Shown here piece by piece: positions 1 through 63,536 of a stretch of 64,000 nt of DNA (positions within the stretch are counted from its first letter, which is position 1; each line of letters starts with the position of its first letter). The notes beneath the pieces were generated by a model. The model searched no databases and was not told the origin of the DNA. It saw nothing but the letters and a program-made list of their open reading frames with translations. Source of the stretch: Escherichia coli (GTDB taxonomy: Bacteria > Pseudomonadota > Gammaproteobacteria > Enterobacterales > Enterobacteriaceae); NCBI RefSeq assembly GCF_009931435.1, contig NZ_CP043414.1. One strand, 5' to 3'. The position numbers and the translations under genes are program-made.

Positions 1-305
1 AGTACGGCGAGTGGCGCACCGGCGTTCGTTCGGAAGGTACGGTCTACACCGGCTTCACCTTCTTTCGCAAAGTATCTCAGGCGCTGGCAGGTTTCTTCCC
101 AGGCTGGATGCTGACGCAAATCGGCTATGTGCCAAACGTGGCGCAGGCTGACCATACCATCGAAGGTTTACGCCAGCTGATCTTCATCTACCCAAGCGCA
201 CTGGCGGTAGTCACCATTGTGGCGATGGGTTGCTTCTACAGTCTGAACGAGAAAATGTACGTCCGCATTGTTGAAGAAATAGAAGCCCGTAAACGCACGG
301 CATAA
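1..305 (+). CDS. yihP: GPH-family sugar:cation symporter, 3' fragment (gene begins upstream of window)
   Basis: Frame open from position 1 to stop at 305; C-terminus is paralogous to the downstream YihO C-terminus (EG.VYTG.TFFRK...GYVPN); position matches K-12 synteny. Confidence 0.75.
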   Translation, partial: YGEWRTGVRSEGTVYTGFTFFRKVSQALAGFFPGWMLTQIGYVPNVAQADHTIEGLRQLIFIYPSALAVVTIVAMGCFYSLNEKMYVRIVEEIEARKRTA

Positions 306-339
306 ATAATAAACAACGCCCTGCGGGGCGTTATAAGGA

Positions 340-1749
340 GTGATTATGTCTGACCATAATCCACTGACATTAAAACTGAATCTGCGGGAAAAAATCGCTT
401 ATGGCATGGGCGACGTCGGTTCGAATTTAATGCTTAGCATCGGCACTCTGTATCTCCTCAAATTTTATACCGATGAATTAGGGATGCCTGCTTACTATGG
501 CGGGATTATCTTTCTGGTGGCGAAATTCTTTACCGCGTTTACCGATATGCTCACCGGATTTTTACTCGACTCGCGGAAAAATATTGGGCCTAAAGGCAAA
601 TTTCGTCCCTTTATTTTATATGCAGCGGTTCCGGCGGCGTTAATTGCAACGCTCCAGTTTATCGCCACCACCTTTAGTTTGCCGGTTAAAACGACGATTG
701 CCACCGCGCTGTTTATGATGTTTGGACTTTCATACAGTCTGATGAACTGCTCGTATGGCGCGATGATCCCGGCCATTACCAAAAACCCCAATGAGCGCGC
801 GCAGCTCGCAGCTTATCGACAAGGAGGAGCCACCATAGGGCTATTGATTTGTACCGTGGCGTTTATTCCGTTGCAGTCGCTATTTTCTGACCCCACCGTC
901 GGTTACGCCTGCGCGGCACTGATGTTCTCCATTGGCGGCTTTATTTTTATGATGCTGTGCTACAGAGGCGTCAAAGAGCATTATGTGGACGCAACGCCAA
1001 CCGGACATAAAGCCAGTATTCTCAAATCATTTTGCGCGATATTTCGTAATCCGCCATTGCTGGTTTTATGCATTGCTAACCTGTGTACCCTGGCGGCATT
1101 TAATATCAAACTGGCAATTCAGGTCTATTACACCCAGTATGTGCTGAATGATATTAATTTATTGTCGTGGATGGGATTCTTCAGTATGGGATGCATCCTC
1201 ATCGGCGTATTGCTGGTGCCATTAACTGTAAAATGTTTTGGTAAAAAACAGGTTTATTTAGCTGGCATGGTGCTGTGGGCGGTGGGGGATATCCTGAATT
1301 ATTTCTGGGGCAGTAACTCTTTCACTTTCGTCATGTTCTCTTGTGTCGCCTTTTTTGGTACGGCCTTTGTAAACAGCCTGAACTGGGCGCTGGTACCGGA
1401 TACCGTAGATTATGGTGAATGGAAAACCGGTATTCGTGCCGAAGGTTCTGTTTATACCGGTTATACCTTCTTTCGTAAAATTTCAGCCGCACTTGCTGGC
1501 TTCTTGCCAGGCATTATGCTGACGCAAATCGGTTATGTTCCCAACATCGCGCAAAGCGATGCAACATTACAGGGTTTGCGTCAGCTCATTTTTATTTGGC
1601 CTTGTGCGCTGGCGATAATTGCTGCATTGACGATGGGATTCTTTTACACGCTCAATGAAAAACGTTTTGCGTTAATTATTGAGGACATCAACCAACGTAA
1701 AAATAAAGAGATTGAGACAAAAGAAAAAACTGCTTCCGTAACGTTATAA
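340..1749 (+). CDS. yihO: GPH-family transporter (putative sulfoquinovose importer)
   Basis: 469-aa ORF with multi-TM hydrophobic profile; true start may be the ATG at 346 (MSDHNPL); synteny with ompL and yihN. Confidence 0.85.
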   Translation: MIMSDHNPLTLKLNLREKIAYGMGDVGSNLMLSIGTLYLLKFYTDELGMPAYYGGIIFLVAKFFTAFTDMLTGFLLDSRKNIGPKGKFRPFILYAAVPAALIATLQFIATTFSLPVKTTIATALFMMFGLSYSLMNCSYGAMIPAITKNPNERAQLAAYRQGGATIGLLICTVAFIPLQSLFSDPTVGYACAALMFSIGGFIFMMLCYRGVKEHYVDATPTGHKASILKSFCAIFRNPPLLVLCIANLCTLAAFNIKLAIQVYYTQYVLNDINLLSWMGFFSMGCILIGVLLVPLTVKCFGKKQVYLAGMVLWAVGDILNYFWGSNSFTFVMFSCVAFFGTAFVNSLNWALVPDTVDYGEWKTGIRAEGSVYTGYTFFRKISAALAGFLPGIMLTQIGYVPNIAQSDATLQGLRQLIFIWPCALAIIAALTMGFFYTLNEKRFALIIEDINQRKNKEIETKEKTASVTL

Positions 1750-1816
1750 ATGTCAATAGCCGCTATTTCCATCCTGATGGGTGGCGGCCCCCCTACGTTA
1801 AAAAAATGGACTTATT

Positions 1817-2509
1817 ATGAAAAAGATTAATGCAATAATTTTATTATCTTCTCTGACCTCTGCCTCGGTATTTGCTGGCGCATACGTCGAAAACAGGGAG
1901 GCATATAATCTCGCCTCCGATCAGGCAGAAATTATGCTACGTGTAGGTTATAACTTCGATATGGGCGCGGGTATCATGTTAACCAATACCTATAATTTTC
2001 AGAGAGAAGATGAGCTTAAACATGGCTACAATGAAATTGAAGGTTGGTATCCTTTATTCAAACCAACCGATAAATTAACCATCCAACCCGGTGGCTTAAT
2101 TAATGATAAAAGCACCGGTTCCGGTGGTGCAGTATATCTGGACGTCAACTATAAATTTGTACCATGGTTTAATCTGACAGTGCGAAATCGCTATAACCAT
2201 AATAACTATAGTTCAACAGATTTGAACGGGGAGCTGGATAATAATGACACCTATGAAATTGGTACCTACTGGAATTTTAAAATCACCGAGAAATTCTCCT
2301 ATACATTTGAGCCACATTATTTCATACGCGTAAATGACTTTAATAGCAGCAATGGAAAAGATCATCATTGGGAAATCACTAATACCTTCCGTTACCGTAT
2401 TAATGAACACTGGCTGCCTTATTTCGAATTACGCTGGTTAGATCGTAATATAGAACCATACCACCGCGAGCAAAACCAGATTCGTATCGGGACGAAGTAT
2501 TTCTTCTGA
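1817..2509 (+). CDS. ompL: outer membrane porin OmpL
   Basis: 230-aa ORF with N-terminal signal peptide (MKKINAIILLSSLTSASVFA) and aromatic-rich beta-barrel-like sequence ending in F; synteny. Confidence 0.85.
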   Translation: MKKINAIILLSSLTSASVFAGAYVENREAYNLASDQAEIMLRVGYNFDMGAGIMLTNTYNFQREDELKHGYNEIEGWYPLFKPTDKLTIQPGGLINDKSTGSGGAVYLDVNYKFVPWFNLTVRNRYNHNNYSSTDLNGELDNNDTYEIGTYWNFKITEKFSYTFEPHYFIRVNDFNSSNGKDHHWEITNTFRYRINEHWLPYFELRWLDRNIEPYHREQNQIRIGTKYFF

Positions 2510-2599
<90 letters not shown>

Positions 2600-2600
<1 letters not shown>

Positions 2601-3865
2601 CAAGCTTCAGCCGCCAGCATCTCTTTCTTACGTTGGCTAATACGCTTAACCAGCATTACGGAAACCACCGCACCACAGAATGCGAAGCAGGCCATAATGC
2701 CAAACACGATTTTGTAGCCAATAATCCCCGGATTTAAATCCAGAATGTAACCATACAGACTGAAGCAGAACATCGCCGGGGCGTAACCGATAAAGCTACC
2801 CAACGCCATCGCCGCGCCTGTTTTATTTTCAGCAATTTTTGCTTCGCCGATAGGTGCAAAAAATACGGCTCGCTGTGTAAAGACTATCGCGCCAAAGCCT
2901 AATGTACAGGCCATCCCTAAATAGACCGGCATACTTTCGTGCGGCAGCATAATCAACAGTACGAGCGCAGCGGTACTGATGATAAAGGTGTAGCATAGAT
3001 ATTTACTCGGCGATTTCAGGATCTTATCTGAAATCATGCCACCAATCGGTCCACCGATCATTTTCAGACAGTATTGGTTAATGATGCCGTAAGCACCCAC
3101 CAGCGCAACGGGCAGCAGATAGATGTTTTTCAGGAATGGAATGAAGAATGTCAGGCCACAGTAAACCGCGTAAACGAAGAAGACGTTGAAAGCGATAAGC
3201 CAGATGGTTTTATCTCTCAGCACCGAAGTCATACTGGTGTTTTGCGATGCTTCGTCTTCTTTTTTCACCTCCACGGACGGTGCCTCTTCTTTGTCATTGA
3301 GTACAAAGAAAATGATAACGCCCACGGCAATCACAATAAGGGAATAGAACCAGATACCCGCTTTAAAGCCCAACAAGCCACTGCCAAACCAGGTAAATAC
3401 TGCCAACGCAGAAAATGCCACCACAGTATCGACAATTCCACGCCCTGTTTCGAAGAAGCCAAACAAACGACCTTGTTGTTCGCTATTGCCCAGTCGACTT
3501 ACCGACTTGAGCAAGACAGGCCAGTTCATCATGTCGCAGGTAACGCCAAATAGCGCCCAGACAAAGAGGATGCCCCAATACCCCGGCATTGTCGTCAAAT
3601 AAACACCCAGTAATCCCGTCGCAATGAGGGAGAATGACATGGTGTATCTGCGCGGTAGTTTATCGGCAAAATAAATAGACAGAAAAAAGCCCACTGTGGT
3701 GACAAATGAGTTTACCGACATAGCATTACCAATTTGACCATTGGTCAAATGGAAATATTCCTGCATCGGGATATAAAACGCATCTTTCAACGACGGTAAT
3801 TTATAAATTGTACCGCCACACAGTGTTAATAGACTAAATAACGCCCATTTCTTTTTCGTGAGCAT
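2600..3865 (-). CDS. yihN: MFS transporter
   Basis: 421-aa hydrophobic ORF; synteny. Confidence 0.85.
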
Positions 3866-3964
3866 AACATCCCCTAAGCGATTTTGAAAATCACTGTTCT
3901 AAAGGCAATAAGATACCGGCCATTCTTATGGAATGGTTTTTATTAACAGCGGATGAGTTAAAGC

Positions 3965-5832: not shown

Positions 5833-5865
5833 AAAAAAAAACCTGCCATCACTGGCAGGTTTTTT
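5833..5865 (-). terminator. rho-independent terminator downstream of typA (palindromic, potentially bidirectional)
   Basis: Hairpin cctgccatcactggcagg flanked by an A9 run and a T6 run. Confidence 0.6.
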
Positions 5866-14690: not shown

Positions 14691-14759
14691 AATGGTTCGT
14701 CTTTTAGCCGTTTTATTCAGTATAGATTTGCGGCGGAATCTAACAGAAAGCAAGCAAAG

Positions 14760-15001
14760 AAAAAAGGCGACAGATTACTCTGTCGCCTTTTTTCCTGACT
14801 CATAACCCTTAACGGGTCTTACAATCCCTGCAGGCCGCCAACACACCCTGTTTTTCCATTAGCCGGAACAATCCGTGTTGATTCCATTTCCGTTTAATTA
14901 CGTCTCCGGACGTTTGTCTTCCTGACAATCCTCTGTCTTCGCCTCCTGGCGCTCCTGACCCTCATCCTGAGTCATTGTTCCTGTTAGCGTCCTCGCTCTA
15001 T
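14760..15001 (-). ncRNA. csrC: CsrC small RNA (CsrA-sequestering)
   Basis: Minus-strand sequence begins ATAGAGCGAGGACGCTAACAGGAACAATGACTCAGGATGAGGG, has multiple GGA motifs, and ends with a GGCGACAGAGTAATCTGTCGCC hairpin plus U-run; 3' end approximate. Confidence 0.8.
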
Positions 15002-15998: not shown

Positions 15999-16107
15999 TA
16001 AAAAACGCCCCAGTCATTACTGACTGGGGCGGCTAAAATATTCAGCCAAATCCGATTACGTGAAGTAAAAGGTCTGAAAGATAGAACATCTTACCTCTGT
16101 ACCCTAC
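15999..16107 (-). ncRNA. spf: Spot 42 small RNA
   Basis: Minus strand reads GTAGGGTACAGAGGTAAGATGTTCTATCTTTCAGACCTTTTACTTCACGTAATCGGATTTGGCTGAATATTTTAGCCGCCCCAGTCAGTAATGACTGGGGCGTTTTTTA, including the terminator hairpin. Confidence 0.92.
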
Positions 16108-20337: not shown

Positions 20338-20377
20338 GTTTTACTCGCCTCTGAATGAGCAGAGGCGAGTGAGTATT

Positions 20378-21913: not shown

Positions 21914-21943
21914 ATAAAAAAAGCCCGTGAATATTCACGGGCT
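21914..21943 (-). terminator. rho-independent terminator between dsbA and yihF
   Basis: gcccgtgaatattcacgggc hairpin followed on the minus strand by a U7 run. Confidence 0.65.
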
Positions 21944-21962
21944 TTATGTAATTTACATTGAA

Positions 21963-25145: not shown

Positions 25146-25174
25146 AAAAGGCCATCCGTCAGGATGGCCTTTCG
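25146..25174 (-). terminator. rRNA operon terminator (T1-like)
   Basis: Minus strand aaaggccatcctgacggatggcctttttg hairpin and U-run just downstream of 5S. Confidence 0.65.
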
Positions 25175-42079: not shown

Positions 42080-42108
42080 ATGACAACCGCCCTGACGGGC
42101 GGTTGAAT

Positions 42109-63459: not shown

Positions 63460-63536
63460 TTCCTGGGTATACTCAGGCAATGATTACGGCTGAATCTGGA
63501 GAGATTCAGCCACTTTACCACTGACCAGGGAGCCTT

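What the first reader, a model, noticed from the sequence alone, without database searches (positions are those of the whole stretch)
313..330. Stem-loop in the 34-bp yihP-yihO spacer
aacgccctgcggggcgtt forms a stable hairpin with no following U-run, directly ahead of the yihO RBS. It may be an mRNA processing or stabilising element, or a translational-coupling structure, within the transporter operon.
Basis: seen in the sequence. Interest (0 to 1): 0.2.

Follow-up and report, generated by a model that had tools for sequence, protein, structure and literature searches.

The report
Conserved mRNA hairpin before yihO
A small GC-rich RNA hairpin between two sulfoquinovose-transporter genes (yihP and yihO) is real and has been kept by compensatory mutations across many enterobacteria, so it is a functional part of the operon's mRNA (most likely a decay barrier or RBS-flanking insulator, not a terminator), but it belongs to an already familiar class of element.

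Summary
The hairpin exists: AACGCCC-UGCG-GGGCGUU, 7 bp, -12.2 kcal/mol. It lies at window 315-332, not 313-330. The spacer is 40 bp (yihP stop 303-305, yihO ATG 346), not 34. Taken alone it is only modestly unusual. Comparative data make the case. A stem-loop sits at the same place in 46 sequences from Enterobacterales, with 13 stem haplotypes, compensatory changes at 4 of 7 core pairs, and 15 G·U against 0 A·C cells. That pattern means the sense-strand RNA is what folds. Thirty of 43 loops are UNCG. The stem ends 12-14 nt before the yihO ATG in every case, including two loci where the upstream gene is tauE rather than yihP. There is no U-tract. Published RNA-seq on sulfoquinovose gives a yihO/yihP read density of about 0.75, so it is not an efficient terminator. 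It is single-copy, not a REP element, and matches no Rfam family. The neighbouring yihQ-yihP and yihO-ompL spacers carry their own conserved hairpins. My best reading is an intercistronic mRNA stem-loop acting as a 3'→5' exonuclease barrier that also frames the yihO RBS. The mechanism is inferred, not shown. It is a new member of a known kind, of low to moderate interest.

The parts
1..305 (+). 3' end of yihP (MFS_2 transporter), stop codon TAA at 303-305
   Evidence: RefSeq annotation of matching E. coli DNA; Pfam MFS_2 hit on the translated window 3-302
306..314 (+). A-rich single-stranded linker (AUAAUAAAC) between the yihP stop and the stem. Its length varies among species (5-15 nt to the core stem)
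   Evidence: predicted unpaired
315..321 (+). 5' arm of the hairpin (AACGCCC)
   Evidence: pairs kept across species
322..325 (+). UGCG tetraloop (UNCG class; 30 of 43 orthologous loops are UNCG)
326..332 (+). 3' arm of the hairpin (GGGCGUU)
335..340 (+). Shine-Dalgarno sequence AAGGAG of yihO, 2 nt after the stem, predicted unpaired (P = 0.88)
346..1749 (+). yihO CDS (467 aa, putative sulfoquinovose MFS transporter), ATG at 346-348
342..361 (+). Weak AU-rich second hairpin GAUUAUG-UCUGAC-CAUAAUC that contains the yihO AUG (-5.7 kcal/mol). Predicted only in the Escherichia/Citrobacter/Salmonella-type sequences. Its membership in the element is uncertain
1759..1788 (+). Separate conserved stem-loop in the yihO-ompL spacer, part of the same series of intercistronic hairpins (-15.8 kcal/mol)

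Best explanation
The hairpin is a selected secondary structure of the sense-strand yihQ-yihP-yihO-ompL mRNA. It is one of three conserved intercistronic stem-loops in this part of the sulfoquinovose operon.

Most likely mechanism (inferred): RNA polymerase reads through it because there is no U-tract. After endonucleolytic cleavage somewhere in the downstream message, the very stable C(UNCG)G-capped stem blocks 3'→5' exonucleases (PNPase, RNase II). The yihP-containing upstream segment then outlives yihO-ompL, which contributes to the stepwise fall in mRNA level along the operon. This is the malE-malF / Dar & Sorek '3' protective structure' model.

The stem always ends 2-4 nt before the yihO SD. 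It therefore also fixes the structural context of the ribosome-binding site, leaving the SD single-stranded between two stems, and may in addition tune yihO translation.

Shown: existence, conservation, covariation, strand, spacing, uniqueness, absence of a U-tract, co-induction of yihP and yihO. Inferred: the exonuclease-barrier role and any effect on translation.
For: **Structure under selection**
- In the 43-sequence alignment, 91% of cells are paired against 39-50% when partners are slid.
- 31 cells show double changes, a value reached by 0 of 500 shuffles.
- RNAalifold recovers the 7 core pairs, 4 of them with compensatory changes.
- There are 13 stem haplotypes, including A-U/G·U/G-C and C-G/U·G/U-A series.

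**Strand**
- 15 G·U cells against 0 A·C cells, so the + strand RNA is the folding molecule.

**Stability-type loops**
- 30 of 43 loops are UNCG and 2 are GNRA.

**Not a terminator**
- The tail is AUAAGGAG.
- In K-12 grown on sulfoquinovose, reads are yihP 204/212 and yihO 149/169, a per-bp ratio of about 0.75. Both genes are induced from about 1-3 reads (PMC12608037 supplement).

**Gradient consistent with upstream protection**
- Read density per bp is yihQ 0.34 > yihP 0.15 > yihO 0.11 > ompL 0.03. Every one of these junctions carries a conserved hairpin.
- All three hairpins start about 8-14 nt after the upstream stop codon.

**Known mechanism**
- The 3' protective structure model is described for malEFG and many E. 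coli operons, and such structures are conserved in Salmonella and Enterobacter (PMC5927463).

**Single copy**
- One match per genome in 3875 E. coli genomes and one covariance-model hit in the window.
Against: - No 3' end, half-life or nuclease data exist for this junction. Term-seq and TIER-seq tables contain nothing here, but they were made with the operon uninduced.
- The yihP-to-yihO drop is only about 1.3-fold, from low read counts, and ordinary 5'→3' polarity could explain it.
- A 7-bp stem of -12 kcal/mol is at the weak end for stopping PNPase (my own knowledge). Orthologues reach 9-10 bp and -15 to -20 kcal/mol.
- The stem's distance to the yihO ATG is nearly invariant (12-14 nt, sd 0.5), while its distance to the yihP stop varies (5-15 nt, sd 2.0).
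- The hairpin stays next to the yihO SD in two loci where the upstream gene is tauE, 53-68 nt away. This pattern fits a yihO-linked role (translation or 5' protection) better than a yihP-linked one.
- The hairpin has been deleted in at least 11 species, which have 6-25-nt spacers, so it is dispensable.
Confidence: 0.4

Rival explanations
1. yihO-linked element. The hairpin belongs to the yihO translation-initiation region. In one version it tunes 30S binding by occupying the standby region immediately 5' of the SD and keeping the SD unpaired, setting a low, fixed output of a membrane transporter. In the other it becomes the 5'-terminal stem-loop of a processed yihO-ompL mRNA after cleavage in the A/U-rich linker and protects it from 5'-end-dependent RNase E attack (papBA-like).
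For: - The gap from stem to ATG is 12-14 nt in all 43 sequences, while the gap from stop to stem is 5-15 nt.
- The same hairpin lies 13 nt from the ATG in L047 and L067, where tauE is the upstream gene and the flanks have diverged.
- The paralogous yihP gene (65% identical) also has a conserved hairpin ending 12-18 nt (mostly 15) before its ATG.
- The SD is predicted unpaired between two stems.
- The papBA-type model is documented in the literature (PMC5927463).
Against: - yihO mRNA is not more abundant than yihP (ratio about 0.75), the opposite of papBA-like stabilisation.
- The canonical RNase E motif RN|WUU is absent upstream of the stem in the window and in all Escherichia, Citrobacter and Salmonella sequences. 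It is present in only 13 of 37 loci.
- The region from SD to ATG is constrained anyway and indels are rare in these spacers, so constant spacing is weak evidence.
- The ompL junction hairpin is 28 nt from its ATG.
Confidence: 0.3
2. Weak, non-canonical intrinsic terminator or hairpin-stabilised RNA polymerase pause. This would give partial polarity after yihP, or hold the polymerase near the yihO start codon so that a ribosome can load before Rho acts.
For: - The GC-rich stem with an UNCG loop resembles a terminator hairpin.
- There is a modest drop of about 25% in read density.
- An Anaerobiospirillum orthologous junction carries a true hairpin followed by T8 (L066).
- The SD GG (337-338) and the UG of AUG (347-348) fit the G-11G-10/Y-1G+1 elemental pause consensus (my own knowledge of Larson et al. 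2014, not tested here).
- A Rho termination region is reported inside yihP (Adams 2021, supplementary file 2).
Against: - There is no U-tract on the + strand in any enterobacterial orthologue; the tail is the SD.
- The + strand scan does not call it a terminator.
- Spacing from the stem to the putative pause 3' end is 13-15 nt, longer than the 10-12 nt of class I pauses (my own knowledge).
- No Term-seq 3' end is listed for yihP or yihO, though that is uninformative because the operon was off.
Confidence: 0.1
3. The palindrome acts at the DNA level or on the other strand. It could be a protein operator (for example for CsqR) or a terminator for antisense transcripts. On the minus strand it reads as 9 pairs followed by TTATTATTTA.
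For: The terminator scan flags it on the minus strand. It is a perfect 7+7 inverted repeat.
Against: - 15 G·U against 0 A·C cells: every wobble is tolerated only on the + strand RNA.
- The stem sequence changes while pairing is kept (13 haplotypes), which argues against a sequence-specific operator.
- The A/T-rich flank that supplies the minus-strand T-run is missing in Enterobacter, Kosakonia, Rahnella and Pantoea.
- The minus-strand RNA fold is weaker (-10.4 against -12.2 kcal/mol).
- No minus-strand gene ends here.
Confidence: 0.04
4. Neutral or relic structure. The hairpin is conserved only because the spacer is short and little time has elapsed, and it has no function.
For: - It has been lost repeatedly without loss of the genes: 11 species have 6-25-nt spacers.
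- Hairpins of this strength arise by chance about 5 times per 64 kb.
Against: - Pairing is maintained through double substitutions across at least five families of Enterobacterales, while the adjacent linker is unalignable.
- The hairpin is identical in L047 and L067 although their flanks have diverged.
- The loops are enriched for extra-stable tetraloops.
Confidence: 0.1

Closest known systems
3' protective intercistronic stem-loops (malE-malF REP hairpins; 'protective RNA structures' of Dar & Sorek 2018, PMC5927463)
   Same: A stable stem-loop lies inside a polycistronic sugar-utilisation mRNA at a cistron boundary. It is read through by RNA polymerase and conserved among enterobacteria, and the upstream cistron is somewhat more abundant than the downstream one.
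   Different: It is not a REP: it is single-copy, has no Rfam naRNA4 hit at this site, and is only 18-24 nt. Most structures in the 2018 catalogue lie inside the downstream ORF, on average 107 nt in, whereas this one is in the spacer and abuts the SD. Differential decay has not been measured.
papBA-type 5' protective stem-loop created by RNase E cleavage
   Same: The hairpin lies in the intercistronic region immediately upstream of the downstream cistron's RBS and is preceded by an unstructured A/U-rich stretch.
   Different: There is no RN|WUU site upstream of the stem in Escherichia, and the downstream gene is not the more abundant one.
Rho-independent (intrinsic) terminators and attenuators
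   Same: Short GC-rich stem closed by a C(UNCG)G tetraloop.
   Different: There is no 3' U-tract. It sits inside an operon 2 nt before an SD, and read-through is about 75%.
SD-flanking 'standby site' hairpins that modulate 30S loading (Espah Borujeni et al. 2014, from my own knowledge)
   Same: A stable hairpin lies 2-4 nt 5' of an exposed SD, with a single-stranded A/U-rich distal segment.
   Different: No measurement of yihO translation exists. The effect could be positive, negative or nil.

Membership tests
Intrinsic (Rho-independent) terminator | GC-rich stem-loop | tested here: met
   7-bp stem with 5 G-C pairs, -12.2 kcal/mol
Intrinsic (Rho-independent) terminator | Run of U (at least 5 of 8) immediately 3' of the stem on the transcribed strand | tested here: not met
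   The tail is AUAAGGAG. The + strand scan does not list it. The tail is the SD in all orthologues.
Intrinsic (Rho-independent) terminator | Marked drop of downstream transcript level, or a mapped 3' end | tested here: not met
   The yihO/yihP read density is about 0.75 on sulfoquinovose. No Term-seq 3' end is listed, though the operon was uninduced.
REP/BIME repeated extragenic palindromes | Member of a dispersed repeat family with the REP consensus | tested here: not met
   One place per genome in 3875 E. coli genomes. Unique in the window at up to 3 mismatches. The Rfam naRNA4/REP signal is only at 2513-2549.
3' protective intercistronic structure (malEF type) | Stable, evolutionarily conserved stem-loop at a cistron boundary on the mRNA strand | tested here: met
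   Covariation and G·U asymmetry
3' protective intercistronic structure (malEF type) | Upstream segment has a longer half-life than the downstream one, with processed 3' ends at the stem | not testable with these tools
   Only steady-state counts are available (yihP/yihO about 1.3). No rifampicin decay or 3'-end data exist for induced cells.
papBA-type 5' protective stem-loop | RNase E cleavage site (RN|WUU) in unstructured RNA just upstream of the stem | tested here: not met
   The motif is absent in the window and in all Escherichia, Citrobacter and Salmonella sequences, and present in 13 of 37 loci. The Salmonella TIER-seq supplements have no yih entries. This is a motif test only; RNase E specificity is loose.
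papBA-type 5' protective stem-loop | Downstream cistron more abundant or more stable than the upstream one | tested here: not met
   yihO is about 0.75 of yihP in steady state, from low counts
Translational-coupling / SD-sequestering hairpin | SD or start codon of the downstream gene base-paired within the structure | tested here: not met
   The SD 335-340 lies outside the stem, with P(unpaired) 0.88. The AUG is paired only in a separate weak hairpin at 342-361. The stop-to-start outer helix is not conserved.
Any curated Rfam family | Covariance-model match | tested here: not met
   No hit at 300-350 even at E up to 10

The most novel reading that the evidence does not exclude
The hairpin plus SD, with its invariant 12-14-nt spacing to the start codon, may be a dedicated control module for the two paralogous sulfoquinovose MFS transporter genes; yihP has an analogous conserved hairpin about 15 nt from its ATG. 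Examples would be a structure that docks on the 30S platform, or one that stabilises an RNA polymerase pause at the start codon. Either would set or couple YihP and YihO synthesis independently of mRNA decay.
Probability: 0.12. Interest if true: 0.5.

Novelty: new member of a known kind. Interest (0 to 1): 0.25.

Why it matters
The finding shows that the transporter half of the sulfoquinovose operon (yihQ-yihP-yihO-ompL) is punctuated by three conserved, covarying mRNA stem-loops. None is annotated or present in Rfam, and the yih literature I could search does not mention them. They offer a concrete, testable explanation for unequal expression of the cistrons in a pathway of current interest (gut and plant sulfosugar catabolism), and a clean natural example of an SD-abutting UNCG hairpin. 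The principle itself, intercistronic hairpins shaping operon expression, is well established, so the gain is incremental.

Tried and rejected
- **Rfam** at a permissive threshold over 1-3000: nothing at the hairpin, only a sub-threshold REP/naRNA4 signal at 2513-2549.
- **Repeat-family idea:** rejected. The sequence is unique in the window and single-copy in E. coli genomes. The covariance model R1 hits only the orthologous junction. It never hits the yihQ-yihP hairpin, so the two hairpins are not detectably homologous.
- **Minus-strand terminator** suggested by the scan: rejected on G·U/A·C asymmetry and the non-conserved T-run.
- **Outer helix** pairing the yihP stop region (299-305) with the yihO start (344-350), seen in the 65-nt fold. 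This would be a classical coupling device, but it is not recovered by RNAalifold or in wider-context folds of 30 species.
- **Internal promoter** in the A/T-rich linker: no + strand promoter-like site was called, and scan hits are at chance level.
- **RNase E motif search:** not conserved.
- **Experimental 3'/5'-end data:** the Salmonella TIER-seq supplements have no yih entries. The E. coli Term-seq curated ends have none for yihO, yihP, ompL or yihQ; the only entries are a Rho region inside yihP and one antisense to ompL. The TERMITe supplements have none. All of these come from conditions where the operon is essentially silent (1-3 reads on glucose), so the absence is uninformative.
- **yih cassette paper** (PMC12608037): does not mention hairpins or terminators.

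Full report
**What is there**

The window starts inside yihP. The yihP stop codon TAA is at 303-305 and the spacer runs from 306 to 345. The yihO ATG is at 346, preceded by the SD AAGGAG at 335-340. RefSeq annotation of near-identical E. coli DNA confirms the order yihQ-yihP-yihO-ompL on this strand, with yihN convergent.

The spacer is 40 bp here and 42 bp in K-12.

The RNA folds as a perfect 7-bp stem, AACGCCC/GGGCGUU, with a UGCG loop. Its energy is -12.2 kcal/mol, z = -3.8, and none of 200 shuffles fold as well. In a 57-65-nt context the z-score is -2.5 to -3.4. The 3' flank is AUAAGGAG, so there is no U-run.

**Is it more than chance?**

On the single sequence, only modestly. Dinucleotide shuffles of the 64-kb window give about 5.5 perfect hairpins of this strength, against 14 distinct real ones. 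The decisive evidence is comparative.

**Comparative evidence**

I scanned one genome per species for YihO and obtained 69 loci from Enterobacterales and a few outgroups.

- In 41 species-level loci plus the window and K-12, a stem-loop occupies the same position in the yihP-yihO spacer.
- A covariance model built from these sequences found three further untrained instances, in Salmonella arizonae, a Citrobacter and Leclercia adecarboxylata. It found exactly one hit in the window.
- The taxa include Escherichia, Citrobacter, Salmonella, Klebsiella, Enterobacter, Kosakonia, Leclercia, Lelliottia, Franconibacter, Mangrovibacter, Pantoea, Rahnella, Pectobacterium, Budvicia and Limnobaculum.

The stem sequence differs between these taxa while pairing is kept.

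- There are 13 core haplotypes, for example AACGCCC/GGGCGTT, AGCGCCC/GGGCGCT, GACGCCC/GGGCGTC, AGCGCTC/GAGCGCT and TGCGCCG/CGGCGCT.
- For a 9-pair structure, 91.4% of cells are paired, against 39-50% when the 3' partners are slid by 1-3 columns.
- 31 cells carry changes on both sides, a value reached by 0 of 500 shuffles. The covariation score is 0.312 against 0.170 for shuffles.
- RNAalifold independently predicts the 7 core pairs, 4 of them with compensatory changes.
- The shuffle control does not correct for phylogeny. However, wobble intermediates of the A-U/G·U/G-C and C-G/U·G/U-A series are seen directly in different genera.

**Which molecule folds?**

Among the 40 sequences with 4-nt loops there are 263 Watson-Crick cells, 15 G·U cells, 0 A·C cells and 2 U·U cells. 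A G·U pair on the + strand would be an A·C mismatch on the minus strand or in a cruciform. This asymmetry therefore identifies the sense-strand RNA as the object of selection.

That disposes of two alternatives: the minus-strand 'terminator' flagged by the simple scan (9 pairs plus TTATTATTTA) and a DNA operator. The A/T-rich flank that would supply the minus-strand T-run is also not conserved outside the Escherichia/Citrobacter/Salmonella group.

Thirty of 43 loops are UNCG (UGCG, UACG, UUCG) and two are GNRA. This points to selection for a fast-folding, very stable stem rather than for a specific loop sequence.

**Anatomy relative to the genes**

- The core stem ends 12-14 nt before the yihO ATG in all 43 sequences (sd 0.5). 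Extended stems reach the base next to the SD.
- The distance from the yihP stop to the stem varies from 5 to 15 nt (sd 2.0).
- In two loci, Lelliottia nimipressuralis and an Enterobacter MAG, the upstream gene is a TauE-family exporter instead of yihP. The stem is 53-68 nt from that gene's stop, still 13 nt from the ATG, and identical in both loci although their flanks have diverged.
- Eleven species lack the hairpin altogether and have 6-25-nt spacers. About ten others (Serratia, Yersinia, Hafnia and similar) have spacers of about 50-190 nt with other structures.

**It is part of a series**

- The 45-nt yihQ-yihP spacer has its own conserved stem-loop, GCCCGYGGG-GAAAC-CYRCGGGC. It has 9 pairs, 8 with compensatory changes and many G·U, and ends about 15 nt before the yihP ATG.
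- The yihO-ompL spacer has a longer conserved stem-loop at window 1759-1788 (-15.8 kcal/mol). It begins about 9 nt after the stop and ends about 28 nt before the ompL ATG.
- The tightly packed junctions yihU-yihT (23 nt) and yihT-yihS (16 nt) have no hairpin. The 137-nt and 198-nt spacers before yihR and yihQ look like operon boundaries.
- YihP and YihO are 65% identical paralogues.

**Function: what can be excluded**

*Efficient terminator.* There is no U-tract. In published RNA-seq of K-12 grown on sulfoquinovose, yihP and yihO are co-induced from 1-3 reads to 204/212 and 149/169 reads. That gives a per-bp ratio of about 0.75 (PMC12608037 supplement).

*REP or other repeat.* The sequence is single-copy in 3875 of the 5426 E. 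coli genomes searched, unique in the window, and has no Rfam match.

*SD or AUG sequestration by this hairpin.* The SD is predicted unpaired (P = 0.88). The AUG is paired only in a separate weak AU hairpin at 342-361 (-5.7 kcal/mol), which is lineage-specific. A stop-to-start outer helix seen in one fold is not conserved.

**Function: what remains**

Two established mechanisms fit an intercistronic stem-loop that is read through (PMC5927463).

1. *A 3' barrier to exonucleases that preferentially preserves the upstream segment (malE-malF type).*
   - It fits the monotonic read-density gradient yihQ 0.34 > yihP 0.15 > yihO 0.11 > ompL 0.03 per bp.
   - All three junction hairpins start 8-14 nt after a stop codon.
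   - The literature gives this type a higher prior: about 70% of decay-regulated operons stabilise the upstream gene.

2. *A yihO-linked role, either a 5' protective stem after RNase E cleavage (papBA type) or tuning of 30S loading.*
   - It fits the invariant distance from stem to ATG, the tauE-context loci and the analogous hairpin before yihP.
   - Against the papBA version, yihO is not the more abundant cistron.
   - Also against it, the RN|WUU motif is absent upstream of the stem in Escherichia, Citrobacter and Salmonella, and present in only 13 of 37 loci.

I commit to the 3' barrier, with framing of the RBS as a secondary consequence, at about 0.4. The yihO-linked alternative gets about 0.3. 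A weak terminator or pause, and neutrality, get about 0.1 each. DNA-level or antisense roles get about 0.04. That a selected sense-strand RNA structure exists I hold at about 0.9.

**Experimental record**

- No transcript ends map to this junction in E. coli Term-seq. The curated 3' ends from LB and M63-glucose cultures have no yihO, yihP, ompL or yihQ entries.
- The TERMITe supplementary tables have none either.
- The Salmonella RNase E cleavage tables have no yih entries.
- The only nearby entries are a Rho-termination region inside yihP (MG1655 4066197, minus strand) and one antisense to ompL.

**Verdict**

The element is real and under selection as RNA. It is a new, unannotated member of a well-known class, intercistronic mRNA stem-loops, and of low to moderate interest.

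Noticed in passing
L001 1883-1904 (K-12 yihQ-yihP spacer; upstream of the window's left end): A second conserved stem-loop, GCCCGYGGG-GAAAC-CYRCGGGC, ends about 15 nt before the yihP ATG. In 36 species, 8 of its 9 pairs show compensatory changes and there are many G·U pairs.
   Followed up: partly
window 1759-1788: Conserved interrupted stem-loop in the yihO-ompL spacer (-15.8 kcal/mol). It starts about 9 nt after the yihO stop and ends 28 nt before the ompL ATG at 1817. Published read density falls about 4-fold across it.
   Followed up: partly
window 342-361: Weak AU-rich hairpin GAUUAUG-UCUGAC-CAUAAUC that contains the yihO start codon (-5.7 kcal/mol, z = -2.9; AUG P(unpaired) about 0.01). 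It leaves the SD exposed between two stems. It is seen only in the Escherichia/Citrobacter/Salmonella-type sequences and is confounded by coding constraint.
   Followed up: partly
window 2513-2549 and 2571-2595: A REP-like element (Rfam naRNA4, 40.6 bits, below the gathering score; it matches many places in E. coli genomes) and a 9-bp palindrome TGGCCGGAT...ATCCGGCCA lie between the convergent ompL and yihN genes.
   Followed up: no
yihP coding region (MG1655 coordinate 4066197, minus strand; by my estimate of the BW25113/MG1655 coordinate offset it lies about 430 nt upstream of the yihP stop, so probably left of the window's start): Adams et al. 2021 (eLife, supplementary file 2) list a bicyclomycin-sensitive Rho termination region inside yihP and another antisense to ompL (4063846, plus strand). 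No curated Term-seq 3' end is listed for yihO, yihP, ompL or yihQ.
   Followed up: no
L066 (Anaerobiospirillum MAG), yihQ-yihP and yihP-yihO spacers: In this distant relative both junctions carry canonical hairpin-plus-T-run terminator-like sites (for example AAACAGTACGATAG...CTATTGTACTGTTTTTTTT), unlike the U-less enterobacterial hairpins.
   Followed up: no
L047 and L067, about 1996-2992: An alternative gene context: GH31 sulfoquinovosidase-like gene, then a TauE sulfite-exporter gene, then a yihO-like transporter gene. The yihO-type hairpin is retained 13 nt before the ATG. This suggests a different sulfoquinovose pathway cluster that reuses the same transporter module.
   Followed up: partly
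L072 7235-7371 (K-12 yihS-yihR spacer, minus strand): The 137-nt spacer folds very stably (-55.6 kcal/mol) and contains CCCTCTCCC...GGGGCGAGGGG repeats. Together with the 198-nt AT-rich yihR-yihQ spacer it probably marks transcription-unit boundaries inside the 'operon'.
   Followed up: no
window 1-2600: This stretch is only about 95% identical to K-12, and the best full-length E. coli match is 98.6%. A 76-nt segment around the hairpin is 100% identical to E. coli strain N3. Only 3870-3875 of the 5426 genomes searched carry the long yih cassette, in line with the reported long and short cassette polymorphism.
   Followed up: no
window 5836-5865, 14759-14794, 16006-16031, 20343-20370, 21920-21945, 25147-25172, 42084-42105, 63488-63511: Perfect palindromic hairpins of 9-16 bp. 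Several have A-runs and T-runs on both sides and look like bidirectional intrinsic terminators.
   Followed up: no
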